Assembly: GCA_010909165.1 (NCBI GenBank)
Contig: MU008172.1
Location: 1,240,001-1,304,000, forward strand
DNA from: Anthoceros angustus
Taxonomy: Eukaryota > Plantae > Anthocerotophyta
Direction of reading: 5' to 3'
Length of the DNA stretch: 64,000 nucleotides
The notes under the pieces are model-generated. The model was not told the origin of the DNA. It ran no database searches and saw only the letters and a list, made by a program, of their open reading frames with translations. The first letter of the stretch is position 1; each line of letters starts with the position of its first letter. This document shows, piece by piece, positions 8,302-45,900 of this stretch. Position numbers and translations under genes: made by a program.

Positions 8302-8310
8302 GATGAGTGA

Positions 8311-24206: not shown

Positions 24207-24324
24207 CAGGCAACTGAATGTGTGCGTTGAGTCCGAGCAGACGCAAAGTGAGGTGAGAATCGTCGCGCGCAGCTGAGCTCATTCCCTTGGGAACGGACTC
24301 CTTACTACAACGACACGGATTATG

Positions 24325-27300
24325 TGCGCCCCGCCCGTCGTAAATCGTGCCACAAGGATCTTGGTCCAATCTTGTTGAACTGGACCGACCTCCCTCTCAG
24401 CCGGCGCCTCCTCCTCGATTCTCGCGAGACCGCCTTCTTCTATGGCTGGGCCTCCACCGACCCCCTCCACCATCCGGTCACGGTGGCCTCCACTTCCAGG
24501 TCTTCGCCGTTCAGAGACGCGCCGTCCATGACGGTTGCCAAGACCAGTGTCTCCTCTGACCGCGCGGGAGGCACCAGAAATCCTGCGCGGGCATCTCCCG
24601 TCCGCTATGATCGCCACACCGCAGCCCTGGATCGGGCTCGGACTCCACCGTCAGACCTCGTGTCCCGAGTGTTCCGGCCTGACCTTCCACCTCCTGGCCC
24701 TCTTGGCCGCTTAACTCCTTCTCCGCTCACCGCTTGGGGCTCTGAGGTGGCGAGGGGGTCTCGAACTCGCCTCACTCTCTACCGCCTGGGATGGGACCTG
24801 TGGTGCGTGGCCATGGCCTCGCCTCATGATCTCGCCTCGCCTGCGGATGCCTTCCGCCTCCGCCACCAGAGGTGGGTAGGGGAACTGGCCCCGGGCGCTC
24901 TGTGGAAGCCGCTCTTCCCGCCTCTTGGTCACCTCCTTCTGGGCGAGGGCCCGGGGCCTGACCATGTGGGTGGCCGACACGGGCGCCACCGATCACGGCC
25001 CCTCTTCCCGGTGCACCCGCCGGCATGCGACGAGTGCAAAGTGCCTCACCGAGACACCGCTTGATCTTCTCGCCCGTCCCAAGTTTGTACAGATGCTTCC
25101 CGCAGTAATAGGGTGCGGCCTTATGGAGAAACCACCCGCCTCGGACAAACCATCCGCATGATTCCATGCTCCAGTGAACTCATGTACTTCACCGTCCAAC
25201 AAATATCTGCATGAACGCCCTCACGCCCAATCTCCTCCTTCCAGCGCACTATGTCCCTCCTCCTAGGACATCCGGCTAGTAGCTCCGCATGGCGGTATCC
25301 ATCTGGCGGCCAACTTCTTTCCCTCGCCGCCCATGCCGCACGCTCGATCCGTAGGACGCCTGCATTTGCCCTTCCTTCATTAACGGTCGATTTCGTCTGG
25401 CCCCCGCCGCCCAGCCTCGCCTAGGACCAACTCTCCCCATGGCGACCTCTTCGCCTTCTTGCACTTCCATGTCCTCCAGGAGTGATCCCAAGAATCATAC
25501 CCTTCTTCCAAGTCTCTTCAAACTTGTCATGAGGTGCGCCCTTCCTTTGCCAACTCGTGGCCTCCACTTGCAGCCCTCCCTGACTGCCTCACCCTTGAGA
25601 AGCATTTCAGCCTCCTCCTCGCCATGTCGGCGCCTCTTATCCTCTCTAGGATTTCCAGATTGTTCTGTAGCTTTTCCTACAACGCCCTTCTTGCTCATTT
25701 GGCCTTCTCGCTATGGACAAGACTTCACATCAATTCTAGGCTGTTCATAACATGCTCTCGCTCCTCCTTCGACCCGTCAGCCGGGCAACCAACCGCCGTG
25801 AAATTCCACATCCGTGGCTCAAATCGCCTCCAAGTAGAAATAAATCGATTCCGTCGCCTCGGCCTAGTTTCTACGCCATAATCAAAACCTTGTAAAGAAG
25901 CAGATCCACCGCAATCCTTCCCATGCATCCGGTTTGTTTACAAGGTACTTCAACGCAAAATGGTCAACATGGAACGTCACCTTGCAAGCGATAATGTCTA
26001 AAGTTCTTACAGAGTAAATGATACCAAGTCCCTCCCGCCTCCGGTGGTTGAGTAGTTCTTTTCAAAGATCCGTGAGTCGTCACCTCGCATAGAAAATTGA
26101 TGATCCTGCTTTTCCTCATCTTCCGGTTTAGGATACCTCTAATGGCATAAGCGGACATCTACATAGAGCTGAAACGTTTCCTCCTAACTGCCACTAAAGT
26201 CGCTAAGTCAATAACTGTCAAAAGCTCTGCATTGGTCCATCTCGAAAGGTATCCTTCTTGGTCAATTGGGCAATCAATACGCTACAAACCTTGATGAACC
26301 TCCTGTGAATACCCTACGAGTCCTCGCGACCGCCTCACCGCTTAGGTGCGCCCATCTCACGGCTACTTTATCCTTATCTACCGCAACTTCATCGAACCTG
26401 TGCCAACAAAATACCTTCACATACTAAAATAATATTTCGGATGAAGCTCATGTTTGACTCTCGCACTTCAAAACATTGCCTCAAATGGTCTAGATGCGTC
26501 TCTCCCAAACACGTTAAATCATCCAGAATACCTCCATGAACTTTCTCGTAGTCTGAAATATCGGCTCATCCATCACTGGAAAGTGTGGGCATCGCACAAC
26601 CCGAAAGGAGCTTCGGTCAAGCTTTAAGTTCCCAACTGTCCGTGGAATGTTGTCTTGTCCGATCCTCCTTCCGCAAATAAATTTGATTGTACCTGCACAC
26701 CTCTGGCCCAAGAAACTGTGACATCTCATGTCCAACCATCGTGTCCAAAGATAATCATTCCATGAAAGGTAAAGGGTGATGATCCTTCTTCGCTTTCATT
26801 GAGCTTTCCAAATCTTGGCATACCCAACCTTTCCTCGCCGCTTTGGTACATATTTACGTGACCCACTCACCGGTGAGCACCGGATAAATTACCCCACCTC
26901 CAAATATTGGTCAGCTGATCCTTAATAACCATGGAATACTTGGGATTCAAATGCCAGCATTGGATCCTCACCGTGAAAGCCGCCTCCTTCAAATAACCAA
27001 GGCTCCTACCTATCAAAACCTTATAGCCTAAATCCGAAACCAGATCACAATGTAGGTAAGATGGAAGGTGAGACCCCAATCACAGTTGGTACATTCAAGA
27101 CCCCAATGGCTTCCTCTGTCCGGCCATCCGTAGAATACGGGCCGGGTGAAACTCGAACCCAAGTTGATGAGCCTCCGTCATCAAGTTGACTCGATCCGAA
27201 TCTAATGGCACGCTGGGCACCAAACACCCCGCAATCTCAACCTCAATCTCGGTGCCCCTAAATCAACGAGTTCGACCACATTTACCTCCACGCTTTCACT

Positions 27301-29977
27301 CCTACGCTTGTGGATTCCATCGCCTCCTTCACAATTTTGGGATCTTGACTCACCGCAAGCAATCGCCCGATCGACCACAAATTGTCAAGTAATGCGTCAA
27401 ACCGAGATCTTATCCGACAAAGTTTCCTCCCGCTTGCAGCTGGTCGATTCGACCTTATTGGTAAAGTTCGATTCCATGCCTCCTTTTGGGATCCCATATG
27501 GATCCTCAATTCCGGCTCCGATTCCACCTTCCCGTCGGGTGAGCTGTTAATTCATCTTCCAAAGATTGCCGCTACTTCTCGCTAATGTCGGAGGAAACGC
27601 GTCTGCTCCTCCCCTCCTTCTTCTTTCGCCCCTACCGAGGTAGTCACGGTCTACCTCAGAGGTGCCGCATCACCGGGTAGTCCGCCACTCCTGGGTCCGC
27701 TCTTTCCTCCGCTCAACACGCGCCTCCGGAGGCTGGTGAGTCATCCTCACCTTCCTCCGCTTCCTCGTGCGCACGCCGCTTTTCCGCATTCGCCCTTTCT
27801 CGCCCCGATCCGTGGTCACCGCCACCATCAACCTTCATCCGCGCATCTTCTTCATACCCTCCACAATTCGATCACATCGAGTCGTCGAGGAATCGAACTC
27901 GCCCACCTTCAACACCGGGTTATCAGAATCGCGTCTCGGATTGGGTCTTCTCTTCCACAGTGTGCCCGAACTCGACCCCGGTCATGCCACTGGCCACCCT
28001 GCACCGGGATCCCCATTTTATGTCCCAATTCCTTACATACGCAAAAGGGCACATAACCCACTTGCTTCCGTGGTTCGCATTCGCTTGAGTAGTGACCGGG
28101 CTCCGCAATTATAACAAGATCCCCGTGGAATCGCCATTGGCCTCGATGGATCCGGTCTCCATTGTCCCGCGATGTGGACGTGATCCATACCTTGAGGGAA
28201 CCGTGTAGGTAAGTCGCCTCATTGATTGAGGTGGCCGACTTCCAAAGGACCGCTGCACCGTACGCCCGCCCACATACCATCCTCGGCATGACGGTTTCCA
28301 CATGATTTACGATGTCGTGGTGCGAATACATTTGGTGGTGTCCTTTGATGACAGATTGAGCAATACACCAATCTGGTGAAGGAGATCTTCGTGGAGCTTG
28401 ATTCTTCACGCCTTGACCTCTAACTCGGTCAACCTCTTGGTCAAAGCCTCCACTTGTCCAAAGAATCCTCCTCCCGCCGCAGACGTTTCTCCTTCTCCAT
28501 CCGACGGACCGCTTCCCTTTCTCCTTCTCCAATGCCCGCCTCCTCTGCCTTTTGACCTTCTCGTGTCCTTCTCATTCGCTGCTCGTAGGCCTTCCGATTC
28601 CTTCATCCGATGTGGAGCTTCCCGAGTTCTCACTTTCTCGATGAGGATGAGGGCGACGAGAGGAGGAGGAAGACGAGGAGCTAGATCTCCTCGATCCTTT
28701 CCTCTTATGACTTCTTCTTCCTCCTCCCCAACTCGGACTCCCATTCCTCAAAGCGAGGGCTCCAACGCCTCTTGTTCCACGCGCAGTTGTACCTCCATTT
28801 TTCATGATAGCCACTCACAAACCAATCCAACGCTTGTCTTGTGAGTACCGAGGTGGGTGGATCTCCGGCCTCTCGGGTGCACGAACTCGATCCAGATATC
28901 CATAAAACCTCTCCACATAATCGAACAAAGACTCGCTTTCTTCCCACGGAGGGTTCTCAACTCGCCAAGGTGGTGTGCGAATGAGCCCTCGAACCGATTC
29001 AAGAAGGCCTTAAGAGCTTCCCAATCTGGGCGCCACGAATTATATGCGACTACCACCAAGCAGCATGCCCTCTCGCAGTCCCGGAAAGATGCGCACGATC
29101 GGCGACTCCATCCTCCAAATTGCGTGGAGACGTGAAAGTTCTTACAAACGCCTCCATCTCCTTCTTCTTCTCGCCGAATTTGACGACACATGGCGTGAAG
29201 CTCCTCCTCCACCAACTCCACTCATGTTGCTCGTTCGGAGCGTCCACGCTGCCCCAACACTTCTTCTTCCTTCGGGATAACAGGAAACAGATCGGGATCC
29301 TTGAGCACGGAAATCTTCTACCAACAAGGGAGTAGCGACCTCCCCTCTGGTCCGTCCCAACAGATCAATCTGATCAGAGATTCGATCAAGTCGTTCCGCC
29401 AAATCCTCCGACCAAGCTCCCCCCGCCACTCGACCTCGTCACACCGCCGCCTGGAAGTTGGGGTGGTATCACCGCTTGAGATAAAACGCGGGAGTTCGCG
29501 GCGAAGGCGTCGCTCGGAGAAGTGCGCCTTCCTCACCGGACACCAATTCTTCCACGACCTCCTTCCTCGCCGGTGATCTCCGCCTCTTCCTCCTCCACCT
29601 CCGTCGCTCCACCTCTGCCTTCTCGGAGCCATACTTCCTCCGTCCGCGTGACCCGGCCTCCTCCGCTGCCCGAGTGCGACAGCGCCTTCCCTTAGCCGAT
29701 TCCTCGAAGCTCAGAATCTTGCAGGATGGTGGTGACCTCTGTGGTATCTCTCCGAGATCGACCCCTACCGACATCCGCAACATCCTCATGTCCTCCAACC
29801 CACAGTGTTAAGAAAGCAAATCACACCCTTTAGTGTCTCAACCATTCACCCCTATGACAACTTAGGCGTGAAATCTTCTTCTCACCCTATGGTCGACCCT
29901 CTCCCTTTGAAAACATTCTGCAGAAGCGATGGAAACCACAAAACTTCAAACTTTCAACAACAAGTCTAACGCCAAAA
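24325..29977 (-). mobile_element. Ty3/gypsy family C internal region (PBS, gag, PR, RT, RH, partial INT), heavily frameshifted, 3' truncated
   Basis: PBS TTTTGGCGTTAG directly follows the LTR end at 29978. Gag DWEALKAFLNRFEGSFAHH (~29000), zinc-knuckle remnants (~28000-28110), DSG-type protease (~27190), RT DDHPLPFME / MEVFWMI / ELHPKYYF, RH YAIRGIL, and INT FLHKAAPYY...LYKLG. Confidence 0.9.
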
Positions 29978-30757
29978 TGTGGTAGGGAAAACCCGGGGCA
30001 CTGAGGTCCTCCCACTATAGCGCCACACTTATCCCAATCGCCGCTTGCTGGGTTTCGTCCCATGAGACTTGTGAAAGTTCGAGGTTGTGTCACCGATCGC
30101 CACCGCAGAGACACAACTTCTCACCTTCTAAACAAGCAAGGCCTCTACTCCCTACAGTAACGCTTGCACCTCCGAAGACCAATCCTCAACCTACAACGAC
30201 AAACACTTGCTGTCCCTCAACAGAGGAGCCTATCACGGGCGCCAGGGACCCCCCCGATCCACACCGCGATTCGTCCCTACTTCTAAGACCACTCTTCCAC
30301 CTGTGAGCGCTCTTTACTTGTGATTTGGGATTCGTCCCTTAGGCTCGCTGTGGCCTTCCACTAACACCTACACCTCTAATCCTCTACTCATCTTCTCATC
30401 TCTCATCCTCTTCCTATTCTAACCTCTCGGTTGACTCGCTCACGCACAACCGCCTGGGTCGGCCTCCACCAAAGAAGTTCTTCCTTGGGCCGGTTGCTAT
30501 GAGTTTGACACCAGCGAGAACCTGTGAGTCTTTCCTGTAGTCTACCCTCAAGCCGAGAGTTCCCCGGCATTTGCCACACACCCAAAGCAAAGCAATTTCA
30601 CAACAACCATTCACAAGGGAGCAACTCGCTTAGGCACTTGCAAGGAGCAAGTCCTCCACCAAGCACTCCGACCACCGCGACTTCTTCTACTGACGTTGGC
30701 TCACAAGACTAAATTCCTCCTCAGAATGGCAAAGGACTCGATGAGGGTGGAAGCGCA

Positions 30758-30999
30758 TGATAAAATAGGTTCTAGATTAGGCATTATTCATTAGGGCCTC
30801 ATAACTTAAACATTATTATTACCTAGGGTTATTTAGGTAGTTAGTTATATTAGTTATATTGGTTACAACAACTTACGGTTGTAACTACTTATGGTTGTAA
30901 CCACCCAACTACCCAGCCTATTTAAAGGCTTGTACTTTACTCATTAATCACTTACATTGTTTCTTCTTCTTCTAATCTAAGAGCTACAGATTCTCATCA
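30758..30999 (+). repeat. copia-2 5' LTR (242 bp)
   Basis: TGATAAAATAGG...TTCTCATCA, a direct repeat of 41834-42091. Confidence 0.95.
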
Positions 31000-31011
31000 T
31001 GGTATCAGAGC
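31000..31011 (+). promoter_or_regulatory. Primer-binding site complementary to the tRNA-iMet 3' end
   Basis: TGGTATCAGAGC immediately after the LTR-terminal CA. Confidence 0.95.
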
Positions 31012-31186
31012 ATCGTTGCTCTCTTGCGCATGCTTATGTTTCTTATATATGAGGAGATTATTTACAAGGCACTCTTAAATCTAGCATTCGTCTAGATGGA
31101 GTGCTATTGTTCTACATTCTCTATTTCACCAATTCTTCATCTCTTCCTTTAACATGCTTATATGTTTCAATCTTCTATAATTTCTC

Positions 31187-31720
31187 CATGGACTTCAATT
31201 CTATTAGAAGGAGAAAACAGAAGGTTAAAAGGAAAGAGAATCTCATTAGCAACAAGCTATTGAGAGTGAAATAGAACAAATCTCTTCATCTATAGCAAAT
31301 TTTCATTGCATCAATTTTATTTCCAAAACCGGATCAAGGGAAGCTTATCAAGTTATCAAGATGTCATTTACTTGAATACTTCAGCCCTATTCATATTAAA
31401 GCTTTGGAATTGGCCCTTAACCATATTCCAAATTTAATAATTGGATTAAGTTCTTCCGTACTCGTTTTGACAAATAAAATAAATTCAAACTCCATCTCTT
31501 CATGATTTTTATAATCAATTTTCATCTCTTAAAATTGGTCTCTAATCTTCAAACTGAATTATTTGATTTGAAATCAAAATTTTCTTTGCTTTAATACTAA
31601 TCAAGGATTAGAGAGTATGTCATCATCTCCGAAAGCAGTAGCGATGGATGAATTCTATATGTGCAATAAAATTGAGCATAAGCCCATCAGACTTTGTCCT
31701 TTAAGGACGATTAGCTATGA
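31187..31720 (+). pseudogene. copia-2 extra ORF upstream of gag (frameshifted homolog of 7702-8301)
   Basis: MDFNSIRRRKQKVK...FHCINFIS...RCHLLEYFSPIHIKALELAL aligns by eye with MDF...RRRKVK...HVCNLIS...RRTLLSTFSPYQIGSIESAI. Confidence 0.6.
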
Positions 31721-34700
31721 GTGATTGAAGAAGAATTTGAAGCTACCCAAAACTCGCCTATGGGTAATGATAATGTCCATCCTCCCACACATTATCATTT
31801 TGGTGATGGTTTCAAAGAGAAAGATAGATTCAACGGAAAGATTATGATATTTGGGCATTACGATGCGAGGAGCATTGAGACAAAGAGCATTATGGGGTAT
31901 TGTTGATGGATCCATAACGACCGAGGTCCGATGATGAGCGAACTTGATTTCGGGACGCCAGGATGAGAAGGCACAAGATTTATTAATAAGTGGACTCTCT
32001 CAACAAATGGTCGGGGCATGTTGCACACGCAAAAACATCTCATGAAATGTGGTCTCACCTTACTCAATTATATTCATCACAAGATGTAATGAGCATTGTG
32101 GCAGCTTCTCGTAACTTTCGTAATTTATTTATGAAAGAATCCGATACTATCGAACATCATATTAATGCTTTTAGACAAGCACGTTCCCAAGTTGAATCTG
32201 CAACTGGTGTACCTATATCTGAGATGGAAGCTTACGTCACCCTTCTATCTTCATTGCCTCCCTCCTATCGTCCATTCATTACTACTCAAAACGCAGTTAT
32301 TCGCAATTCACGGAGAACTGCAAATGATGGCACAAAGGGGTTTGACATAAGTGTTTCTGAACTGATCGGAGCACTTCTCCAGGAGGAGGCAAGTAGGCGC
32401 CATTCTCACTCCAGGCCTAATAAACAACAAGTAATGTACTTGCAGAGGGGTAGAGGAAGAGGACGAGGCAGAGGCCGAGGTTACTCTTCCCAACGCCCTC
32501 CATATTCTTCGCCAAGTACGAACATTGGAGAAAGCTCTTCATCGACACCTTCAAAGGGTAAGAAGAAGAGCGGCATTATATGCAATTGGTGTAGGATCCC
32601 TAACCATATGGAAAAGGATTGTCACAAAGAATGGTGAACCTCTTGAGGCTTCACATGGAGTTAATGTAGCATCTAAAAAGCAAACTTCATCAACTCCAAT
32701 AAAGGTTTCACCGATGTTGGCATCATCCAAGCCTGCTACCTCCCCGGTATTTAGACAAAGGAGCAACATGGGAGGAAACCCCTGGCTTCCGAGATTCACC
32801 TCTAGTGGCCACACTTATCCCACTGTCTAAGTACAATAGGTTTCGTCCCATGAGACTCTTGTTTGTCGTGTCACCAACATCCAAGGCACAAACCACACGC
32901 CTCTTCACACCCCCAAGCTCCCTCACACACCGGAGCAACTTCAACTCACTCCATGCAGCAGCCCACGCCTCACCATGCCGCCTCCACAATCACCGCTTCT
33001 AGACCTACAACGACACCCTACGACTATAGGTCCACACCCCACGGCAAGAGGGTCACACGCACGAGGGACCCCCACGCTGCAACGCGACTTCACCACCCCG
33101 TGATCGCCCACTATTCCTTTCCCATCGCCTTCCCACAATTGGCACACCTCAACCACCAACTCGACACCACGCCACTCCCGTGACCGCCCGGCCGAATCAC
33201 CACTCCTGGACCTACAACGACATCCCATGCCGAGGGTCCCACTATGGCGGTAGGTCCACCGCTCACGCACAGGGACCTCACAACAGAAGGCCGACTTCTC
33301 CACCCCGTGATTTTGAGACCTTAGCCCAGCCACCCCCTGGGTTGTGCATTTGGGACCCTCCCTTAGGCTCGACTTGGGCCTTCTTCTTACTCCTAATCTC
33401 TACCTACTCCTCTACTCAACATTCACCCACATTCTCCTCAACACTCACCTCAACTCAACTCCTCATCCTCCTAATCTAACCTTACTTCAAGCTCACTGCC
33501 CTAGCTCGCCTTACGGCACAACCGCCTGGGTCCGCCAAGCCAACAAGTTCTTCCTGTGTTGCTATGAGTTTGCACCCGAGAACCTCCTGTGGAGTCTTTC
33601 CCCGTAGTCTACCCTCAAGCCGAGAGTTCCTTGGGCATCGCCACACCCAAAGCAAAGCAATTTCAAAGAACCATTCACAAGGGGAGCAACAGAGGCGCAA
33701 GGAGCGAGCCTCCGCCAAGCACTCCGACCGCCGCAAACTCCCTCTCTACCAACGCTAGCTTGCACGACGAACTTCCTTCACAAGGAGCAAAGGACTCATG
33801 AGGTAGGGAGCGCAAGACACGATAATTTTACTTCACAAGCTCCTCCTTTTATAGGGAGGTCCTCACACAGCCTCTCGGCGCGCCCTCTGCACCGCCTCAC
33901 TCTTATTTTAGTGTATCCTTGCGATTTTAAGTTCGACATCCAAGCATCTTGGGTAAAATTCTATTCTAGCAAACTTCACCTATGTGAGCCTTAATGGCTC
34001 TCCAACATTCCTATCTAGCTAGTCAACACACCTCATCGGGTTGACAAGCATTAATGCCTCCTCCTAAAGAAAGTCTCCCCAAGCAATGAGCCACACTCCA
34101 AGCTACCACCAACCCCTTCAATTGCCTCTAGATCCCGACCGCCCGGTGATCCTACGGATGTAGGGCCACCCTCTACACCTCCTACGAGGGTCAACCTCTT
34201 ATGGCCCTACCGCCTCCACACTCCACCGCAAGAAGGTCTCCCGTGAGCGGATCTTGCTCCATGCCTTCCTCTTCCTCCTCCGAGTCATCCTCACGGCCTT
34301 CCATATACCGGATGTGTTGGGCTGTCCCATATGAATGCCAGTGCCTAGCAGCACCTTTCAAGCTCTTCGGCTCCCTAGCAACCAACTTGCCCTTCTTAGG
34401 TGCGCGCTTTCACCATCTTGTACCTTCAAAATAATCGCACAAACAAGACAAGCTTGGGCACGCCCACATGCTCGCTTTCCACCTAGTTGTCACCTCCTAC
34501 ACACAATTTAGATTTCTTCACTCACATAAAATCCACCAAGAGAGCAACTTCAGCCCTTTTCCACTTACTTCCTCTTCACTCCACAGTCCCACCTAGCTCA
34601 AACTTGATGTCCTCACACATACACTCCTTATGCGCCCAAATCCTCACTTGCAAGGTCCTAGGCACAAAAATTCAGCGCCTTGCTCTTCACAGCCAGTGCT

Positions 34701-37700
34701 TCAAATCTTCACACACAACTCCTTATGCACGCACACCTCCTTCTCCTGCACACACGGCACCTGCTTCCCACCAAGTCCTTGCTCTAGCTTTCCTGCAGCA
34801 TGCACAAGCTCTTCCTGCAATTCCTCGCAGCTTCCTAGGTGCCACTCCCTACACACCCCGCTTGCATGGCCACACCCTACACTACCTACCCCACATATTT
34901 ATGTGCTATTATTCCTAATATATCCTATTTATCCACAACCTTGCCTATGCCTTTTAGCAACTTCTAGGTTTGTACTTTATCCGGAAAGCTTGCATCCAAA
35001 AGCTTTCCAAGTATCCAAGTAGGGTGTCGACCCCACTCACGCCCACGAGGGAGACCTCACCACTCCTACTGAGGGAGACACTCATCCTACCCATCTACCT
35101 ACCTAACTAATGCCCGAGGAGCCCCCACCACATCCTACCCATGTAGGGCCACCGTCACTTCACCCATACTACCCGTGATCTCTATCCCTACTTGTGTTCC
35201 CTACCTTGCCTACCTTACATCTGGACACGCACCCATCCTCCCACTCCATCCCACCCACATACACAGGGACCCCCTACCCATGTAGGGTCCCCTGTTACCC
35301 TACTACTACTACGACCTGCCTACATGAGGGTGCACCTCTACCTAGGGGAGTGCCACCTCCCACTACCACCTACACCTCTCCATTCTCGAGGGCCACCTCG
35401 CCCTACACTGCCTGTAGGGGTGCACCTCCTCCCTACGTGAGGGAGTGCCATGCCACGCCCACTACCACCTACACCTTCTCCATTCTCGTAGGGGTGCCAT
35501 CGCCCCACACCCCTCCGAGGGGTGCACCTCCTCCTCGAGGGAGTGCCATGCTACGCCCAAGCCATACAGAGGGTGCACCACCCAAACACTCTCTGCTCCG
35601 CATCAAATATAACACCTCACACAAAAGGCCCCCATCTCGATCGATCCGCCCCTAGGACGCTTAACTTGGAGTTCTTACATTCCATTGTCCAACACACCAA
35701 TGGCTACACAACACTCAAGAATAAATGAGTTATTCCCCGTGAACTCCTCACACCTCAACAACATCTCGTATCAACCCTCCTTGCTACCCATTTCTCCTCG
35801 CCACCACAACGGCCTCCCTTCACTTTGACTTGCAGCCCCACCGCAAATTCCGCCATCATGATGCACACCGTGTGATCCTTCACCATGTTGCCCCACCGCA
35901 ACATCGCCTTCCTATGGTTTGGCCACACCTCATCTTGCAGCCCATCTACAAATTCAGCCGTGAGTGCCCTACCATGGCCTTTCCTAGTTCAACACACGGC
36001 CCTATCATGCCATCCTCCCATCGTGACTCCATTAAGAGCACTTCCATGTGCCTCACCGCCATGGCCTCCTCTTGCAACCCTTGTGGCTGCTCACCTCAAC
36101 ATGAGCTCCTCGCCTCCCATCCTTGCACCGATTGCTCCTCTCTCGCATGCCGAGCTCCCAACCTAGAGCCCCGCAGCAGATCCTGACAATTCCACCATTA
36201 CGCACTTGGCCCATCTTCCCGCAGCAACCCTTGCCACACATCTCTACCTAGCGCCCTCCATCGCAAAATCTCAGCAATATGAGCACCGCCCATGTCTCAC
36301 TTCTTCCACACGTGGCAAATTACTTTGCCTTCCCTCAAACTTGGTGGTGGCCCCAATAATCGTGCCTTTGCCTCGAAGCCTATCAACAGCTTGCAAAGAA
36401 CCTCAAGCTACTTCCTTGGCTTAATTGCCTTCACCCTTTTCCCACCGTGGTAGGAGCTACTCCACGCCCAGAGGTCATCAAAACGCTAGCTAGGCCGCCA
36501 CCTCACAGTGGTAGGACATTCTCCCACCCATACCCATGGGGTAGGAGTTCTCCACTTAGCCCCACCGTGGTAGGAGTTTCTCCGGGTAGGATACCTCCAC
36601 CACGTAGGACATCTCCACACATATGTCTCCTACCCTCCTCACTAGAAGGTCATTTCGATCCGCTTTTCCCTAAGTATCCTCTCCGCCTCCCGACAAAGAT
36701 CCTACATCTTCAATCGAACAAAAACATTTCAGATGTTTCCACCAAACCATTTCTATCAAAAGCATTCTTGACCAAAAACAACTCACTTAAACCATGCCCA
36801 AATCCTTTATGCTCCACACAACATCACTATATATGTTAATAACAAAAGTTATTTTCAATCATACTCACCAACCATGTGGCACCAAGTCGTCCTCTTGGGA
36901 GATGATCACAACCTCGCCTATCGAAGGTACGGTTACATTGACCGACATGTGATTCGGACAAGTCCTTCACCTCCACCAAGTACTCCATGTTCCATTAATG
37001 TGCAAGAATTTATTATCATTGCAAGTATTTGTCAAACCCATTCCATGTGTGACCCTTTTACGATAGTTGCTTTCTCTCTCATGTAGGTGATAGCAATCAT
37101 ATTATTTGTAGTGGTACTTTAGAAGATGGCCTTTATAGATTGTCCATCTAGTAGGAGGTCAACAATGCTTATGTCACCGCTCTTCTCCCAAAGTCCCCTC
37201 CATCAATGTTATGGCATTGTCGCCTTGGTCACCCAAATAGTCAAAAACTCACCCGGATGTCTAAGGAAACTTTTACGAAACCCATGTCTTGCAAATGTTG
37301 GGCATTTATCACAGTGCGAAACTTGTGTCCTCACAAAGCGTCACCAAGAGCCTTTTAAAACAAATCTCCACAAAGGGCAAAGAAACCTTTAGAGATAGTG
37401 CATACGACATCCGTGGACCTCTATCTACATCTTCCTTTAGTGGAAGTAGGTATTTTTGACTTTTATAGATGATTTTTCCGTTTGTCTCCTCCTATGTCTT
37501 GCAACACAAGTCCGATGCTTTTCAATTTTTCAAAGATTATATGAAATGGGCGAGAGACTGATTGCAAACGAAAACATTACGCTCGACAATGGAGGTGAAT
37601 TTACATCTAAGATTTGAGGAGTTTTGTCGAGCGTAAGGTATTGCTCAACAACTCACCGTTGTCTATACTCCTCAACAAAATGGGATATAAAATAAAAATC

Positions 37701-39993
37701 TGCGTAAGAGATAACGTTGCTTATTAACACAGCCAAGTTGCCTAAGGTTTATTGGGTGAGGCCCTTCACCGAACCTATCTTATCAATCGCTTATCCAAGA
37801 CACGGCATGACGCCTTATGAAGCGTTATTGGCAAGAAACCGTCCATTGATCATCTTCGTATTTTTGGATCACCGCATATGTTTTCATTCCTAAAGCATTA
37901 CGTAAGAAGTTGGATCCCAAGGCAGCCAAGTATCTTTTCATAGGATATCAAGGCATTAAAGGGTATAAGTTATATAACCCTTCAACAAGACAACTTCTTT
38001 ATGCTCGGAGTGTTACATTCCATGAGTCTTACCTCTTTTCTCCAAGGGAGTTGAAGTCGTTGACTCCCGATGATGCTAATGATTTTTCTACATTTGATGA
38101 TCCTAATCCCCTTCCTTTCCTTGTCCCTACTCCTCGTGTTCCTTGTTGACCCCATGTGCGGAGGAGGAGGAGCCTCTTCCACCTTCATCCGATCCCCTTG
38201 AGGCCATTTCGGAAGATGCTATACCTCCGCTCAAGATGATAATGATCGGTTGGAAGTCGATAATCAAGAAATGGATCCCTTAGAACAAGAAGATGAACCA
38301 GTTCCTGTGGAAGACACACCTGCACCAAGGTACAACCTTAGATCACGTCCACTCATCTCTGGCCCTGCTGGTTGGAAAGAACCCCCTTTGGGATACCTTG
38401 CTATTTTTCCTGATTCTAATTCTCCTGAGTCCCTTTATAATCAAGCTGTGTATGCAGCCACTGTAGACTTAGAAGAGCCTCTTACCCTAAAACAAGCCTT
38501 CTCTTCTCCCTCCAAACATCTATGGAAGGAAGCTGTAGATTCAGAGTATAATTCCCTCATTAGTAATTCTACATGGGAATTAGTTGAACCTCCTAAGGGT
38601 AGAAAAATAGTAACCAGCAAATGGGTATTTAAGATAAAGAGAAAAGGAGATGGATCCGGAAAGGTATAAAGCACGCCTAGTTGCTAGAGGTTTTACCCAA
38701 ATCGGACTAGACTATATACCTTGGGCCACTTATGCTCAGTAGCCAAGTTTGCCACTCTTCGCATGATCTTCGCTATATGTGCCCAAGACGATCTTGAACT
38801 TCATATGATGGATGTGAAGACAGACATATTTGTATGGGCGCTTGAAAGAAGAAATATACATGAAGCAACCCGAGGGTTATGAAGTAAAGGCAAGGAGCAT
38901 TTAGTATGTAAATTGATCAAGGGTCTATATGGACTCAAGCAATCCGGCAAAATTGGAACTTGACCATCCATATACAACTCTCGAATAAGGGATTTAAGCA
39001 AAGTAAAGGCGATGCTTGCTTATATATTTACCTTAAGGAAATGATATATTTTACCTTCTATTATACGTCGATGACGTCTTTATGGCAACAAACTCTCTTA
39101 TTCTCCTAGCTGAGATAAAAGCATGGCTTCGGACATTATATGAAATGACCGACCTGGGAGAAATGAATTATGCACTTGGTGTAAATATTATCCGCGATAG
39201 GAGTAATAAAAAGTGAGCATAGTTCAAACCAAGTATATAAAGGAGAGTTTAGCAAAATTTGGAATGGAAGATGCAAAGCGCACCCACACCTTTGCTAGTG
39301 GCATGGCTTACTCGATATGAGTCCTAAGAGTGCTCAAGAGAAAATGGAGATGGCATCCGTCCCATATCGACGTCTTCACTCATATTTAAGCAATTTTACT
39401 AGACACGATATTTCTTTTGAAGTCGGTTCACTCACGCTTTTGGAGAACCCCGACATCAACGGATGTCGTTAAGCGTATTTTTCGATACCTTAAAGGGACT
39501 ATGCAAACAGGTGACATTTAAGCATACACCAGCAATCAAAACATTAACACTTACGGCATATGCCGATCTTATTATGGTGATCCCGATACTCAAAAATCCG
39601 TATCGTTATGTTTTACTTCTTGGAGGAGCTCCAATATCATGGTCGAGTAAGAAACAGCCTTTTGCATTTGCCTAATCAATCAATATAGAGTACTAACATC
39701 TATTTCCAAGGATATAGTATGGTCTAGGCTAATTTTGAGTGAACTTAATCACCCTCAAGAAACCCAACATCTCTTTTAGTGATAGTCGAGCCATAGCACT
39801 TGCTAGAAACCTTTTCCATTCCAACCAAACACATAGTGTTGAGTATCACTATATCGTAGAGAAGTTGGAAGATAACACTATAGATATCACTTATATACCA
39901 ACACAAAACAATCCATTGATTTGTTAACTAAGTCATTAGGGAGAGATTTGCATTTAAGACACATGAAAATGTTAGGTATTCAAGAGGTTTAAG
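31721..39993 (+). pseudogene. gag-pol: copia-2 gag-pol (many single-base frameshifts), split at the protease motif by a solo LTR
   Basis: Gag 31721-32637 (CNWCRIPNHMEKDC); WYLDKGAT at ~32745-32768 continuing as SHY after 36823; integrase ~37390-38000; RT ~38480-39450 (SKWVFKIK, MDVKT, LYVDD); RNase H ~39560-39993 (ISWSSKKQ, YHYIVEK). Confidence 0.93.
32769..36818 (-). mobile_element. Family C solo giant LTR, 4,050 bp, with a perfect 5-bp TSD
   Basis: On the minus strand it starts TGTGGAGCATAAAGGATTTGGGCA (36818) and ends ...GGTTTCCTCCCA (32769). It is flanked by CAACA at 32764-32768 and 36819-36823. The 32769-33890 part matches the C LTR 3' region, and 35700-36100 matches 20500-20900. Confidence 0.92.
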
Positions 39994-40229
39994 TCACCTA
40001 GCTAGTATGTGTCAATGTATTTTCTATAGTCCACACATCTTGTCTAGCATAGAAATTTCCTCTCCTAACTCTATGTAGTCCTCCCGCATCGCTTATCCTC
40101 TCTTTCTAATACCCGGAAGGATCCTACAATACACACCATGGGTTATAAAGTGAAAATGATGAAAAGATAGTACTTAAGTCGTTAGTTACTTACGTACAAG
40201 TGTTTGGTGTGTCCTTCATATTTTTCACA

Positions 40230-41650
40230 TGGGGAAGCACTTAACCACATCATCTTAATCCTCTCTTTTCACATACATACTCCATGGGAACTTCATGGTC
40301 ATCCTTTCCTCCGGAAGAACCAAGTAGGTTGCCTTGCATAAGTTTCAGGTGTAGGAACTAGGAATTTTCCTTTTGCACTTGCTCTCTCTGAGTAGGTCGT
40401 AGAGGTAGGGCAAATCTCACATGGCTTGTGCCCACACTCTTATCTACACCGCAAAATAGGTAGATATTATTAGGAAAATGTTAGTTTAGTTTACGGTTTT
40501 TGGTATCATCTTTCCTACTCACTCCTTGGCTCTTCTCATTGCTGCTATTACATCCTCTATGCGCCATTTACACAAGGATGTGATCTCCAGCTTGGGCTAC
40601 CCTCACAAATAGCTTGAGGTCTCTTGGTTTTATAGAGTCCTCGACTCTTCCGAATCTTCATTCATTTTGAAGTCATCATATTCGGCCTCGATTGGTGATG
40701 CTTTTATCGGATTATCTACATCCATATTTATTAGCATTTTATGCACTCAAAATTTTATGCAATTTATTTTGCAATTTATTGACTTACCAACTTTGACTTC
40801 TCTCACAACGACCTTGGATTTTTCCATGAGCGCCCGCACACCGTGGATATCATCCTCTTCATCGGTATGTCATCACTCTTGCAATAGGACGCACTGCAAG
40901 AAATTCGATCAAGTTTGGGTCATCCGGTTCCTCCCAAGATCCGATAATGTCGGTACAACTTCATCCGGTACAAGTGGTGCACGGGCTGCACGTTTTCCTT
41001 CTTCTTTCTTCCGCAAGTATCCTCCTTCCGCCAAGTGCTTGTTTGATTTTATCGACCCATGTTTCTGCCTCACGAGTACGACCCTCCACTCCAATCAATC
41101 AGATATTTATCAAAACTCCAGCAATTTATTTAGCAATTTTCAGCAATTTATTTCAGCTATTTCCAGCATATAAATCCAGCAAATATTTCAAAATTTGATT
41201 CGAGCACCTTATGCGCGACGGCACGGCTGGATTCTCGCCAAATTTTCGCTATTTTCTCACCGATCTTGGCAACAGTTAGCGACGGCGATTTGATCGCTGG
41301 ATCAGATCATCGGTGCGAAATTTTGGAGTGATGGATCGGCATCGGATCCGGTATGATGGCGCGAGGTCGATGGCGCGATGGATGGCGCGAGTGGATGGCG
41401 CGCGGTCGGATGGCGCCCACCGATCGAGATCGAGGCGCAGATCTCGAGGATTGAGGCACCCGAGGTGCGCGGAGCCGGCGCGGGGAGAAGACGGTTTTGT
41501 CTCCGTCAGAAATCCGGAAGGCGCGGCGGCTAACGCCAGAACCGCCCCTACCCGCTCACAGGCGCGAGAGGGGCCGTTGCTTATTTATAGGCCCAAATGG
41601 GCCTATCTGTTTTAGCTTTTATTTATAGGCCATTTTGTGGCCCGTCTATT
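40230..41650 (-). pseudogene. Antisense, intron-containing, host-like transcription unit in the copia-2 3' region
   Basis: CTATAAATAA on the minus strand (41590-41581) next to GGCCCA/TGGGCC motifs, then a CpG-rich leader. A 72-nt GTAAGT...CTAAT...TAG intron (40787-40716) keeps the frame when removed (...VVREVKV-D-NPIKASPIEAEYDDF). A second 79-nt GTGAGT...CTAAC...TAG intron-like segment lies at 40522-40444. Confidence 0.5.
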
Positions 41651-41820
41651 TTGTTTTTCCATTTTCTTTATGCCTATATTAAGTCCTTATTTATGACTTG
41701 ATTATATGTTAGATGCTTAAGTTTTTAAGACCTTTTCTTAAGCGGATAACTTTAGGTTTAGTGGGAGCCTATTTAACATTTAGGCCTCATTTTAAAGGCT
41801 AGACTTCACCCCTATATTCA

Positions 41821-41833
41821 TAGTGAGTGGGAG
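41821..41833 (+). promoter_or_regulatory. Polypurine tract of copia-2
   Basis: TAGTGAGTGGGAG immediately precedes the TG of the 3' LTR. Confidence 0.8.
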
Positions 41834-42091
41834 TGATGAAATAGGTCTAGATTAGGGCACTATTCATTAGGGCCTCATAACTTAAACATTATTATTTACC
41901 TAGGGTTATTTAGGTAGTTAGTAGTTATATTAGTTATATTGGTTACAACAACTTACGGTTGCAACTACTTATGGTTGCAACCACTTATGGTTGTAACCAC
42001 CAACTACCCAGCCTATTTAAAGGCTTGTACTTTACTCATTAACACTTACATTGTTTCTTCTTCTTCTAATCTAAGAGCCACGATTCCTCAT
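41834..42091 (+). repeat. copia-2 3' LTR
   Basis: Matches the 5' LTR apart from about 4 transitions, small indels and one extra 16-bp GGTTGYAACYACTTAT unit. Confidence 0.95.
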
Positions 42092-42999
42092 CGCAAGACG
42101 TGATACTTTACTTGTGAAATCCTCCTAGGAGGCCTTCCACATACAACCTCCCTTGGGTGACCCCTACCGCAGGTCACCTTTTCCAATTTTCTATTATTTC
42201 CTACCGCCAAGATTTAATGTCCGCACCTAAGTCTATTGTCCGATCCTTGGTAAATTCTATTCTAGTAACTTCACCTAAGACCATCCTTAAGGATGTCGTT
42301 ACACCACATCCTTCTATTCTTCTACCAAAGCATTTATGGTCATTGACCATTCTTAGTCCGTCTTCACCTTGGGTGGCCGTGGTGGATTGGCTCCCTCGCC
42401 TCCTTTTGCTCTTGCCCCTTCCCGATCTTGTCGCCTTCCTAATGTGTGGGGCAAGTACAATCTGCCCTTCCTCCATCTCCGCGGCGCCGATTCTCTGTCC
42501 CCCAATCGCGCCCCTCCGGCACCTAGCGCCTTTTCTCCTCCGCTGGTCGCGCCCGTTCATCGGCACCCTACCGCGGTAGTCGGCGGACTAAGGGGTGTGA
42601 CTTCATGGTAGTCGCCCTATCTCCTTCTTTTCTCCTCTCCTTGTCTGGGTCAGATCTTGCTCCTTTCCTTGTTTGATTTGTCCATACCTATCACGCATCT
42701 TCAAAGGTTCTTCATCCCCATTACCATGATCTCTTCTAATCTCCTTGGGCCTTGACCTCCTCTTGGAACCTCCTTTGTTCCTTCTCCTCCCTTGCTCGTG
42801 GGGTGAGAACTTCTCACCCTCCTGCCTTCCTCGGCGGTCCCCCGTTAGTCTCCTCGGTGGGGTTGTCTCCCACCCCTCCTCCTCGGGGGATACTCTGACC
42901 CCGGCTCCTTCATCCTCGGCCTTGGCCGACTCCCCAGCAGCCCCGCCCACGCCTACCCGGTATGGCGGACTGCGTATGTGTCTACCACGGTAGTCTGGC

Positions 43000-45900
43000 G
43001 GACTACCGTGGTAGTCACCACTGGTGGTTGACCCCGGAGGTGGGCTTTCCCCCTCCTTGCTCTGCGCCACCTTCTACCTTTGGCGCTCACGGCCGCTCCC
43101 TCACGACTCCTCAGTTCCTCGGAGTCCATTTGTGATGGCCTCATCAAAATCGGAGGCCTCACAGGCACTTTTGCACTCCTTTGTCATCATCATGAGGACC
43201 CAATGTCCTCCTCTTGGCCAAACGCAAGATCTCATTGTTGGCCTTCAAAATTCTATTGTGGAGGTGAGCCCCAAGCTATGATATTGCATTTGGAGATCAT
43301 CAACTCGTGGCCACTCTCCATCTTCACACCTACCTTTGTAGGCGTCCCTTGAGGTGGTCAATTCCCCACCTTGACATGGAGGGTCACATTCTCCTCCCTT
43401 GCTTCCTTAATTTGGTGGCCATTTACTGAAGGGCATAGTCCGCCTAAAATCGCGCCTCACCACCAAAGATTCTGCACCACCTTCTTGTGATGCTCCTCCT
43501 CTTGGAACCTCCTTTGTTCCTTCCTCCATTTGCTTGGCAAGTTCCTTCTCCACTTGCCAAGCACTTCCCTCGCTCTAATTCTTGCTTTGATCTTGAGCCT
43601 TCTCTTCTCCTCCAAGTTGAACGATCAACTCTTCTTCCATGTCCGGATCTTGATGGCTTGGGTAGCCATCACTTTCTTGCGTCCATTCTTTGGACCGCCA
43701 TCTTCTCCTACCGAGAGCCTCTGCTTTTGCCCTTTCGTTTGCTCTAATTGGGCAAAGTGCTCCTCCCTGCCTCCATGAATGGGTGGTCGCCCGAATAGCT
43801 CTTCACCGCGACACCTTCCCTTCTAGGATTTTGCCGCCATCCATGAGGTCGCTACTGGAGCTTCTACGCCTTTCCATTTGGCTGCCTTTTCATCGGACTC
43901 CATGGCCTCCAATTGCCACTTGGTCCTCGCTCCCCACCATGTCTTGGGCCTTGACCTCCTCTTGACGCCCACAAGGAGGTTGCTAGGTCCCTAGCCCCTT
44001 CAAATCCACGGCCGAGTGCTTCACAAGCACCCAAAGAATTCTCCTAGGGGTCCTAATTCCACCCCTCCTGCCTTCTTGCCGGAAATTTCCAGCCTCTCAC
44101 TTCGCACGCGGGTCCCCTCACTGCCGCTCCATCCGCCTCCCCACCCATGGGAGATGGTGGCTCGGGCGCCCGCCTCACGCTGTTTCTCTTTCCCTTCCCC
44201 GCCAGAGGCGGCCGCCACCAGGGTGCCTACTCACTGCGGGTAGGCTCCTCACTGTAGTCGCCTACCTACCATAGGTCTCACCACTGTAGGCCGCCCACCC
44301 CAGACCGCCCCACCGGGGTGGACGGGTGCCTCGGTAGGCACAAATGAGATGGTGGGGACTCCCCACCCTTGGGCCGCCACCTCCCGTAGTAGTCCTCCTC
44401 ATAGACTACCATTCGGCCTTCCTCGGCCCTGCTCTTCTCCCTTGCTTGCCCTGGGGAAAAGATTCCCACTCCGCAACCTTGTTGCCTCGCATCTTCTCCT
44501 CTTGCTTCTAGCATGCTTGTGGAGGTCTGCCCACTGCCTTCCTCAATGCAAAAGGCAAAAGGCCTTTCCAAGCTTGGCCGGAGATGGATTATCTCAAGGA
44601 TGCCAAGCATCTTCAAGCTCCTTGCTTGTGAGAAGTCCCTTCCGCTTTCCCACAAATGCACCAAATAGGTGCCGAGGTAGCAGGGCCCTTCCTCATCCAC
44701 CGAATTTGGCTTGAGGAGTTTCTCCTGGTGGATGTACGCTTCATACATAATGGTTCCCCAATCCGCTTGGCTCATGGAAATCTTCCACAAAATTGGAGGA
44801 AGTTGGTGCCGAATAAGAAGTGTTGGTAATTTACCAACCCCAGCACAATCTTTGCGAAGAGCCTCCACTTCAGCCTCCTTGATGCTCTCGCTTCCAGCCA
44901 TTCGGCCTTCACTCCTCCATCCATCATGTCAAGGAATTATGGAATATCGAGAGGTGTCCTCTTCCTCCATTTGCTTGGCAAATTTTTCTCCACTTGCCAC
45001 TCACTTCTCGCCTCCTAATTCTGCATGCGATCTTGAGCCTTCTTCTCCTCCAAGTTGAACCTGATCCTTCGCAGTTCTTCTTCCATGTCCGGATCTTGAT
45101 GGCTTGGGTAGCCATCACTTGGTCCTGCGCGTCCAATTGCTGGACCGCTATCTTCTCCCTACCGAGAGCCTCTGCTTTTGCCCTTTCGTTTGCTCTAATT
45201 GGGCAAAGTGCTCCTCCCTGCCTCCATGAATGGGTGGTCGCCCGAATAGCTCTTCACCGCGACACCTTCCCTTCTAGGATTTTGCCGCCATCCATGAGGT
45301 CGCTACTGGAGCTTCTACGCCTTTCCATTTGGCTGCCTTTTCATCGGACTCCATGGCCTCCAATTGCCACTTGGTCCTCGCTCCCCACCATGTCTTGGGC
45401 CTTGACCTCCTCTTGACGCCCACAAGGAGGTTGCTAGGTCCCTAGCCCCTTCAAATCCACGGCCGAGTGCTTCACAAGCACCCAAAGAATTCTCCTAGGG
45501 GTCCTAATTCCACCCCTCCTGCCTTCTTGCCGGAAATTTCCAGCCTCTCACTTCGCACGCGGGTCCCCTCACTGCCGCTCCATCCGCCTCCCCACCCATG
45601 GGAGATGGTGGCTCGGGCGCCCGCCTCACGCTGTTTCTCTTTCCCTTCCCCGCCAGAGGCGGCCGCCACCAGGGTGCCTACTCACTGCGGGTAGGCTCCT
45701 CACTGTAGTCGCCTACCTACCATAGGTCTCACCACTGTAGGCCGCCCACCCCAGACCGCCCCACCGGGGTGGACGGGTGCCTCGGTAGGCACAAATGAGA
45801 TGGTGGGGACTCCCCACCCTTGGGCCGCCACCTCCCGTAGTAGTCCTCCTCATAGACTACCATTCGGCCTTCCTCGGCCCTGCTCTTCTCCCTTGCTTGC

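What the first reader, a model, noticed from the sequence alone, without database searches (positions are those of the whole stretch)
32764..36823. A 4-5-kb gypsy LTR that carries its own protein-coding gene in U3 (family C)
Seen: a 4,050-bp insertion with TG...CA ends and a perfect CAACA TSD splits the copia protease motif (WYLDKGAT|SHY), which is the signature of a solo LTR. The same 5' terminus (TGTGGA-x-ATAAA-x-G-x-TTTGGGCA) recurs at 19042 and 48809. The same 3' terminus (CCTACCACA) is followed by a PBS and gag-pol at 29978 and 51083. A second solo copy (19042-24206) cleanly interrupts a family B sequence. Inside the unit are a 5' TATA-like box (TATATAT at 19391; reverse complement ~48474), ORF remnants spanning kilobases (208-aa, 207-aa and 200-aa open pieces at 47116, 44278 and 48782), and a canonical LTR TATA 0.8-1.1 kb from the 3' end. 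Known: extra ORFs of plant Athila/Tat/Ogre elements normally lie between the LTRs, whereas ORFs within U3 are known from retroviruses (MMTV sag; HIV nef overlaps U3). Inference: this family duplicates an accessory gene in both LTRs and leaves it behind in every solo LTR, a route for spreading a self-contained gene cassette. I cannot confirm from here that this is undescribed.
Basis: partly seen in the sequence, partly recalled or inferred. Interest (0 to 1): 0.85.

Follow-up and report, generated by a model that had tools for sequence, protein, structure and literature searches.

The report
Protein gene inside a retrotransposon LTR
A jumping gene, likely from a moss- or liverwort-type plant, carries a protein-coding gene inside its 4-5-kb end repeats, so the gene stays behind in solo repeats; the protein may be a DNA-binding anti-silencing factor, an untested guess from the predicted fold of a similarly placed gene in related elements.

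Summary
The layout holds. 32769-36818 (- strand) is a 4,050-bp solo LTR with an exact 5-bp target duplication. A sister copy runs from the same TGTGG end to a primer site and gag-pol. A public contig shows a purine tract directly before that end, so the 4-5-kb unit is the LTR.

The interior is coding: 9 of 11 differences in one open frame are silent third-position changes (P=0.0014).

The element has Athila-like features; its closest named pol proteins are from Riccia and Physcomitrium. Metagenome relatives carry a sense extra ORF after pol whose predicted fold best matches the anti-silencing protein VANC21 (Z 7.2, next 4.2). Homology of the window's ORF to it is suggestive only (best E 0.016-0.08). 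A palindrome, CTACC-NN-GGTAG, is concentrated in these LTRs (11 of 12 copies; 0.05 expected).

No start site at the 5' TATA was shown. Ten literature searches found no plant U3 gene; this scan noted the same layout in fungal windows. New variant of a known kind; interest 0.65.

The parts
32764..32768 (+). left target-site duplication CAACA
32769..36818 (-). solo LTR A, 4,050 bp, TG...CA, a diverged subfamily
   Evidence: empty-site contig
36819..36823 (+). right target-site duplication CAACA
33847..33853 (-). LTR TATA box of A (U3/R boundary expected about 30 bp downstream)
   Evidence: X2 contig 9 ends 33 bp downstream of it
34240..36100 (-). degenerate U3 gene remnant in A (limits approximate): 334-bp block 77.5% like B's gene region, and an acidic tail like that of B, C, D
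19042..24206 (+). solo LTR B, 5,165 bp, ends CG...CG, flanks agree at 3 of 5
19391..19397 (+). 5' TATA-like box in B; function untested
19950..21950 (+). broken U3 gene in B (limits approximate)
   Evidence: shared peptide with C at 20071
42092..48809 (-). 5' LTR of element C, U3 part, starting at the TGTGG end; about 4,990 bp in all once the triplication and the copia are left out
   Evidence: purine tract before this end in X2 contig 11
48473..48479 (-). 5' TATA-like box in C; function untested
43050..47760 (-). broken U3 gene in C, its middle triplicated in tandem (43520-47487); about 2.2 kb, or 700-750 codons, without the extra copies (estimate)
30758..42092 (+). copia element inserted in C's LTR (LTRs 30758-30998 and 41834-42092); host of solo LTR A
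29978..30760 (-). R-U5 part of C's 5' LTR, ending CCTACCACA
25045..29977 (-). degenerate PBS and gag-PR-RT-RH-start of INT of element C, truncated
48810..51083 (+). 3' part of the 5' LTR of element D, abutting C's 5' end in the opposite orientation
48816..49330 (+). C-terminal part of the U3 gene in D; silent third-position variation in the family
51084..63682 (+). degenerate PBS and gag-pol of element D with several tandem duplications
19329..49805 (.). 12 exact copies of the palindrome CTACC-NN-GGTAG, 11 in LTRs B, C, D and one in C's gag region; A has only one-mismatch copies (4)

Best explanation
This is a Ty3/gypsy retrotransposon with Athila-like features whose 4-5-kb LTR contains a sense protein-coding gene in U3, likely moved there when plus-strand priming came to use a purine tract upstream of the gene, and the protein likely binds short motifs in its own LTR to oppose silencing, as VANC proteins do. 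Shown: the LTR limits, the solo copies, the purine tract before the 5' end, and selection on the protein. Inferred: the gene is copied at both ends of a full element (a 5' copy and a 3' junction were seen in different copies, never in one). Inferred: the priming shift; four relatives have a purine tract 27-42 bp after the pol stop, and one has a second tract after its extra ORF. Inferred in two weak steps: the VANC-like role (the window's protein is probably homologous to the relatives' extra ORF; that ORF's predicted fold best matches VANC21), with CTACC-NN-GGTAG as candidate target. Untested: expression from solo LTRs. Odds: LTR layout about 0.9, coding about 0.9, homology to the relatives' ORF about 0.65, DNA-binding anti-silencing role about 0.4-0.5.
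For: Exact TSD and TG...CA. Same 5' end in three different flanks. C runs from that end to PBS and gag-pol. X2 contig 11 (567 nt) lies on 48772-48809, stops at the TG and continues upstream with an 11-base all-purine tract and two spacer bases. 11 of the 16 listed X1 differences fall in D's open frame; 9 of the 11 are third-position and all 9 silent (P=0.0014). X2 contig 9's 30 flanking letters give the same 9 residues as the window, 7 codons differing and all silently (read by hand). B and C share a peptide where DNA likeness is patchy. Relatives L003-L006 (INT 49-51% identical): purine tract just after pol in 4 of 4, followed directly by TG in 2 of 4 (TGTGG in L003); sense extra ORF in the 3 of 4 long enough to show it, 742 aa in L004. 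Model of that ORF's N-domain pLDDT 77.8; top match VANC21 in Foldseek (E 0.29, probability 0.57) and VIA-align (Z 7.2, 200 residues aligned, rmsd 4.4, next Z 4.2). Atlas leads at 0.90: PF03078 (17% of members), PF20167 (94%). The two best tblastn hits of L005's ORF in the 64 kb are the two copies of the expected motif, 44781-44641 (E 0.081) and 47233-47144 (E 1.0). Palindrome 12 against 0.05 expected, the only repeated palindrome of its shape in the LTRs (11 against 1 each). VANC21 binds a short motif arrayed in non-coding parts of its own element (PMC5735166, passages).
Against: Homology between the window's ORF and the relatives' ORF is not significant: hhalign E 0.016 but probability 2.8%, N-half E 0.22 on an unrelated register, frameshift-aware scans below the null over the whole window, p=0.11 local, p=0.09 glocal with a gag control at p=0.05; L004's ORF gave no tblastn hit at the expected place and L003 was run in a wrong frame in that test. 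VIA Z 7.2 is under the tool's caution line of 8, both fold searches use one model, and the other four models scored 38-58. The palindrome was chosen after looking, its copies are partly homologous positions, some lie inside the gene, and A has no exact copy. Motif repeats in the relatives' non-coding DNA do not exceed shuffled maxima. Contig 11 matches over only 38 bases with 7 differences, so it is a sister subfamily, and what lies further upstream of its tract is unseen. The window is noisy (4-7 gap openings per 100 bases between most copies; 493 indel places against contigs in 19.5 kb), so its larger rearrangements may be assembly faults. X1 and X2 are one sample, possibly the window's own, and 'RNA' for X2 is the tool's guess.
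Confidence: 0.5

Rival explanations
1. Same layout, but the protein is an Athila-ORF-like accessory factor with another job (particle, RNA or protein scaffold). It is made from read-through or spliced RNA at the 3' LTR, and the copies in 5' and solo LTRs are passengers.
For: X2 contig 11 spans the purine tract and the LTR end, and contig 9 (4,405 nt) is about as long as all of U3 or longer, which fits read-through rather than a start at the 5' TATA. The 5' TATA-like box is missing in A. The ATHILA ORF has no assigned function (10.64898/2026.03.20.713144, passage). A shared fold shows no function.
Against: Best fold match of the relatives' ORF is a proven DNA-binding anti-silencing protein; a family-specific palindrome is concentrated in the LTR; the TATA-like box with its flanks is kept between B and C.
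Confidence: 0.3
2. The U3 gene is real but unrelated to the relatives' extra ORF: a separately captured or fast-evolved gene of no known family, so the VANC reading does not apply.
For: No relative among 1.84 billion representatives, none in the word-indexed search, no Pfam or Atlas hit; homology tests not significant.
Against: Queries were frameshifted pieces. Position, orientation, estimated length (700-750 codons against 742) and the order of motifs (W-G, L-K-P, Y-L) agree with the relatives' ORF, and the best hits fall on the expected place.
Confidence: 0.12
3. The true LTR is the roughly 1-kb part after AAGGGAGGT and the ORF is an ordinary internal 3' extra ORF, as in L004; the long units come from deletion, nesting or mis-assembly.
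For: AAGGGAGGT followed by TGT lies just upstream of the TATA in B, C and D; L004 looks like a short-LTR element with an internal ORF; the window is noisy and D begins exactly at a breakpoint of C's triplication; no two-LTR element is in the window.
Against: A defined TG end in three unrelated flanks, an exact TSD around the whole 4,050 bp, no direct repeat at the two ends of A or B, an empty-site contig and a purine tract before the TGTGG end.
Confidence: 0.05
4. U3 is non-coding and the open pieces are chance products of GC-rich DNA.
For: Open pieces of 200 aa are not above chance; the frame-free periodicity test on window copies was not significant.
Against: 9 of 11 silent third-position changes; silent divergence in contig 9; that periodicity test also missed most gypsy gag-pol controls.
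Confidence: 0.03

Closest known systems
Athila (non-chromovirus|OTA|Athila; Neumann et al. 2019, PMC6317226)
   Same: 5-bp TSD, tRNA-Asp/Asn-type PBS, no chromodomain or aRH in the relatives, sense extra ORF after pol
   Different: [quoted passage not shown] PF03078 is not hit by sequence. No RT tree with reference Athila was made.
VANC21 of VANDAL21 (Mu-like DNA transposon; PDB 9LNJ/9LNK; PMC5735166)
   Same: Predicted fold of the relatives' extra ORF; a short motif repeated in the element's own DNA
   Different: VANC is in a DNA transposon and binds a non-palindromic 9-mer in same-orientation arrays; here a retrotransposon LTR and a palindrome; binding and demethylation untested; link to the window's ORF unproven
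Plant mobile domain (PF10536) extra ORFs of Ogre, and MAIN/MAIL1
   Same: VANC and MAIN/PMD are reported as structurally alike (PMC13547354; 10.1101/2024.09.27.615353), so a VANC/PMD fold in an LTR element's extra ORF has precedent
   Different: Ogre's PMD ORF is almost always antisense and 3' (431 of 434 hits)
Retroviral genes in or overlapping U3: MMTV sag, lentiviral nef (recalled, not checked in a paper here)
   Same: A gene inside the LTR, copied at both ends
   Different: No sequence or fold link seen; different host and superfamily
Long-LTR plant elements: Ogre (over 5 kb), BAGY-1 (4.2 kb), Retrosat2 (over 3.2 kb), Diaspora (2.5 kb)
   Same: LTR size class (PMC1142308; PMC3485330)
   Different: Their extra ORFs, where present, are described between the LTR and gag; no LTR-internal gene in the passages read
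Phygy (Physcomitrium non-chromovirus)
   Same: Bryophyte non-chromovirus; a Physcomitrium protein is among the closest INT hits
   Different: Phygy has a 4-bp NCGN target, tRNA-Trp PBS and no extra ORF

Membership tests
Ty3/gypsy LTR retrotransposon | TG...CA ends with target-site duplication | tested here: met
   A exact; B degenerate
Ty3/gypsy LTR retrotransposon | PBS after the 5' LTR, then gag-PR-RT-RH-INT order | tested here: met
   C and D
Ty3/gypsy LTR retrotransposon | Polypurine tract directly before the LTR 5' end | tested here: met
   X2 contig 11, a sister subfamily, 38 bases laid with 7 differences
Ty3/gypsy LTR retrotransposon | Two matching LTRs on one element | not testable with these tools
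   C and D are truncated; no genome held
Gene in U3 | ORF lies between the LTR 5' end and the LTR TATA | tested here: met
   A, B, C
Gene in U3 | Purifying selection on the protein | tested here: met
   9 of 11 silent third-position changes in one 300-bp part; not tested over the whole ORF
Gene in U3 | Own promoter, active in solo LTRs | not testable with these tools
   only contigs held; they cannot show a start
Athila | RT/RH/INT phylogeny within the Athila clade | not tested
   no reference set at hand; REXdb FASTA too large to read
Athila | tRNA-Asp/Asn PBS TGGCGCCGTTGCC | tested here: inconclusive
   L004 matches 12 of 13; window copies begin TGGCG and then diverge
Athila | 5-bp TSD | tested here: met
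Athila | No chromodomain, no aRH | tested here: inconclusive
   met in L004 and P0001 by Pfam; D's INT end is cut
Athila | Extra ORF internal, LTR 1-2 kb | tested here: not met
   LTR 4.0-5.2 kb with the ORF inside
Athila | PF03078 domain | tested here: inconclusive
   no Pfam hit; Atlas lead 17% of members for a relative
Phygy | 4-bp NCGN target, tRNA-Trp PBS, no extra ORF | tested here: not met
VANC anti-silencing proteins | VANC21-type fold | tested here: inconclusive
   relatives: top match, Z 7.2, rmsd 4.4, 200 aligned; window piece gave pLDDT 37
VANC anti-silencing proteins | Short target motif enriched in the element's own DNA | tested here: inconclusive
   palindrome enriched in LTRs but picked after looking, partly in coding DNA
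VANC anti-silencing proteins | Sequence-specific DNA binding and loss of silencing marks | not testable with these tools
   needs bench work
VANC anti-silencing proteins | Encoded by a VANDAL Mu-like DNA transposon | tested here: not met
   carrier is an LTR retrotransposon

The most novel reading that the evidence does not exclude
A bryophyte Athila-like retrotransposon has moved a VANC-like anti-silencing gene into U3 by switching polypurine tracts, so that each LTR, solo ones included, is a self-contained module of promoter, sequence-specific anti-silencing protein and that protein's own binding sites, able to de-repress the family in trans after gag-pol is gone. It would also give the long-unassigned Athila-type extra ORF a function and extend VANC-like proteins to retrotransposons of non-seed plants.
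Probability: 0.22. Interest if true: 0.88.

Novelty: new variant of a known kind. Interest (0 to 1): 0.65.

Why it matters
Plant LTRs are treated as non-coding, and solo-LTR formation as the way a host disarms an element. A selected gene inside U3 survives that step and is present twice per element. The relatives suggest a simple route in, a change of priming tract, which can be tested in any good bryophyte assembly. If the protein is VANC-like, it points to sequence-specific anti-silencing in retrotransposons and makes the function of the Athila-type extra ORF directly testable with a named candidate motif. [quoted passage not shown]

Tried and rejected
No own genome is held, so copy counts and two-LTR elements could not be checked. 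No RNA holder listed; X2 is a guess. Parts of C's 5' region had no contig cover (47810-48376, 48539-48619), which proves nothing. Searches with the window's ORF pieces found nothing: Pfam on 30 pieces, of which only gag, zinc-knuckle and weak unrelated hits; phmmer on 1.84 billion proteins; word-indexed search; Atlas; metagenome scan. The profile of the relatives' ORF found only L004's own protein and nothing in viral contigs. DNA pattern and pol scans of viral and prokaryote collections gave nothing useful. A frame-free 3-periodicity test on 20 copy pairs was underpowered: copia pol p=0.0005, but gypsy gag-pol controls 0.29-0.40 (best p=0.047), ORF pairs 0.31-0.39 (p 0.08-0.67), non-coding pairs 0.23-0.33. 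Four frameshift-aware or profile tests with different settings never reached significance. The fold search in BFVD had no match at E 0.001. A single-sequence model of 47269-47757 had pLDDT 37 and was not searched. A bacterial promoter scan was irrelevant. A DNA-transposon reading was rejected because the 3' end is followed by PBS and gag-pol; Phygy was rejected on TSD and extra ORF. Three papers were not held.


Full report
Observation. A 4,050-bp insert at 32769-36818 on the - strand (copy A) reads TG...CA and is flanked by CAACA on both sides. It splits a copia element (LTRs 30758-30998 and 41834-42092) at the protease motif; the residues are RYLDKGAT and the following S-H-Y is not in one frame. 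A contig of run X1 joins 32738 to 36841, so an empty site exists. Three more copies lie in the window: B, 19042-24206 (+), a solo with CG...CG ends and flanks that agree at 3 of 5; C, whose LTR starts at 48809 (-), is interrupted by the copia, and ends at 29978 before a PBS-like site and gag-pol; and D, 48810-51083 (+), only the 3' part, also followed by PBS and gag-pol. C breaks off in integrase near 25050 and D is cut near 63680, so no element with both LTRs is present. No genome is held.

Quality of the sequence. Most copy pairs differ by 4-7 gap openings per 100 bases, and contigs of X1 show 493 indel places against 238 substitution places in 19.5 kb. C has a tandem triplication (43520-47487) and D several tandem duplications of 0.4-1.7 kb; D begins at the point that matches a breakpoint of C's triplication. 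Some of this may be assembly fault. It explains why every frame is broken and why searches with window pieces failed.

Is the long unit the LTR? The same 5' end occurs in three unrelated flanks, A and B have no direct repeat at their two ends, and C runs from that end to the PBS. The missing piece came: X2 contig 11 (567 nt) lies on 48772-48809 with 7 differences in 38 bases, stops at the TG, and goes on upstream with an 11-base all-purine tract and two spacer bases. That is a 3'-LTR junction in a sister subfamily. LTR lengths are 4,050 (A), 5,165 (B) and about 4,990 (C without the extra copies), with the main TATA 815-1,087 bp from the 3' end. X1 and X2 are one sample, perhaps the window's own; they are independent of the assembly, not of the organism.

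Is U3 coding? One search lists 16 substitution places in 47000-49400; 11 fall in D's open frame, 9 of them at third positions, all 9 silent (binomial P=0.0014). The other 5 fall in C where the frame is broken; 3 are silent in the frames I take as conserved, a partly circular choice. The 30 letters by which X2 contig 9 runs beyond its laid part give the same 9 residues as the window with 7 codons changed, all silently (read by hand). B and C share a peptide at 20071 where DNA likeness is patchy, A and B share a 334-bp block at 77.5%, and all four copies end the region in an acidic tail. The gene is in sense, about 700-750 codons by estimate. A frame-free periodicity test was inconclusive and missed most gypsy controls too. 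In A, the focal copy, the gene is a remnant.

Lineage. The closest named integrases are from Riccia sorocarpa (53-61%) and Physcomitrium patens (54%), so the host is likely a bryophyte. The 5-bp TSD, the TGGCG-type PBS and the lack of chromodomain and aRH in relatives fit Athila and not Phygy; no tree was made.

Relatives. A metagenome scan gave 14 loci; I studied the four closest, L003-L006 (INT 49-51%). All four have a purine tract 27-42 bp after the pol stop; in two it is followed directly by TG, in L003 by TGTGG, the window's own end. The three long enough show a sense extra ORF after it. L004 is a collapsed circular contig of a whole element: pol, tract, a 742-aa ORF, a second tract followed by TA-TG, about 1 kb ending CA-TA, then a PBS matching 12 of 13 bases of the Athila PBS. 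It most likely has a short LTR and an internal ORF, though a collapsed contig cannot show LTR length. So one lineage holds both layouts, and use of the upstream tract would place the ORF in U3. Two tracts flanking the env-like gene of Athila4 and Calypso are recalled from Wright and Voytas 2002; the paper is not held and a search did not confirm it.

What the protein is. Pfam names neither the window's pieces nor the relatives' ORF. The Atlas gives leads at 0.90 to PF03078 (17% of members) and PF20167 (94%) for L004's protein. A model of its N-domain from three sequences has pLDDT 77.8, the other four models 38-58. VANC21 is the top match in Foldseek (E 0.29, probability 0.57, TM 0.45) and in VIA-align against 48,161 chains (Z 7.2, 200 aligned, rmsd 4.4; next Z 4.2), below the tool's caution line of 8. 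VANC and the plant mobile domain are reported as structurally alike. The step from the relatives to the window is the weak one: L005's two best tblastn hits in the window are the two copies of the expected motif (E 0.081 and 1.0), hhalign gives E 0.016 with probability 2.8%, the glocal path lands on 47596-47147 at p=0.09 while a gag control reaches p=0.05, and searches are not significant. Position, orientation, size and motif order agree; I put homology at about 0.65.

Candidate target. CTACC-NN-GGTAG occurs 12 times in the window against 0.05 expected, 11 times in LTRs B, C and D; with one mismatch 24 times in 19 kb of LTR and 3 times in the other 45 kb. VANC21 binds a short motif arrayed in its own element. 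The motif was picked after looking, copies are not independent, and a host-factor site or hairpin would look the same. Repeats in the relatives' non-coding DNA do not exceed shuffled maxima.

Expression. X2 has 8 records laid against 4,816 for X1, which fits RNA, but the tool only guesses so. Contig 9 (4,405 nt) ends 33 bp past A's TATA and holds the ORF at the spacing of an unduplicated U3; contig 11 crosses the tract and the LTR end. This fits read-through into U3 as well as, or better than, a start at the 5' TATA-like box, which A lacks. Expression from solo LTRs is untested.

Literature. Ten searches found no plant LTR retrotransposon with a gene in U3. Seen: PMC7264820, main text, parts 1-2 of 3; PMC6317226, passages and Additional files 4 and 5 (files 1 and 3 too large); passages of PMC3485330, PMC13468544, PMC13547354, PMC12844716, PMC5735166, 10.64898/2026.03.20.713144 (86), PMC1142308, PMC2844528, 10.1101/2024.09.27.615353 (99); PMC2426827 only as a listing. 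Not held: the VANC21 structure paper and Sasaki 2022. Steinbauerova 2011 was not looked up. Neumann et al. place extra ORFs only relative to the polyprotein, and Tekay and TatII have both 5' and 3' sense ORFs, so LTR-internal genes may be hidden there. MMTV sag and nef are recalled. Two earlier notes of this scan report the same layout in fungal-type windows; unchecked.

Verdict. The layout and the coding nature are well supported, the priming-shift origin is a reasonable inference from relatives, and the VANC-like role is a lead. New variant of a known kind; interest 0.65.

Noticed in passing
window 51419-63057: Element D's gag-pol stutters: five or more head-to-tail duplications of 0.4-1.7 kb at 83-93% identity. 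Real tandem duplication or assembly fault is not settled.
   Followed up: partly
window 43520-47487 and 48810: C's triplication junctions seem to sit on short shared words (by eye), and D starts at the point matching one junction, head to head with C's 5' end. Nested insertion, inversion or mis-assembly.
   Followed up: partly
window 17412-17602: A 190-bp piece spanning this family's TATA region (85-87% like B and D) sits inside the other repeat family, without TG...CA ends.
   Followed up: no
window 19042 and 24206: Solo B ends CGTGG...CCACG: both ends depart from TG...CA in mirror fashion.
   Followed up: no
L004 1-10852: Collapsed circular contig of a complete Athila-like element with intact gag, pol and a 742-aa extra ORF between two purine tracts; a clean model for the VANC-like fold lead.
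   Followed up: partly
L004 6748-6802 and 7992-8030; L003 2404-2475; L006 1400-1530: Each relative has its own short repeated word in non-coding DNA (AGCGCTA; GAAACCG), not above shuffled maxima.
   Followed up: partly
window 3605-6645: A second, broken copia on the - strand, 69% like the copia at 37206-39324, with clear codon periodicity.
   Followed up: no
   Followed up: no
window 7702-8406: 234-aa open frame on the - strand with a weak DUF6671 match (E 0.0064, under the curated cut-off).
   Followed up: no
window 63682-64000: GC-rich sequence with a 32-bp imperfect inverted repeat (63822-63853) replaces the end of D's integrase.
   Followed up: no
window 35351-35559: About 100-bp tandem duplication inside solo A.
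   Followed up: no
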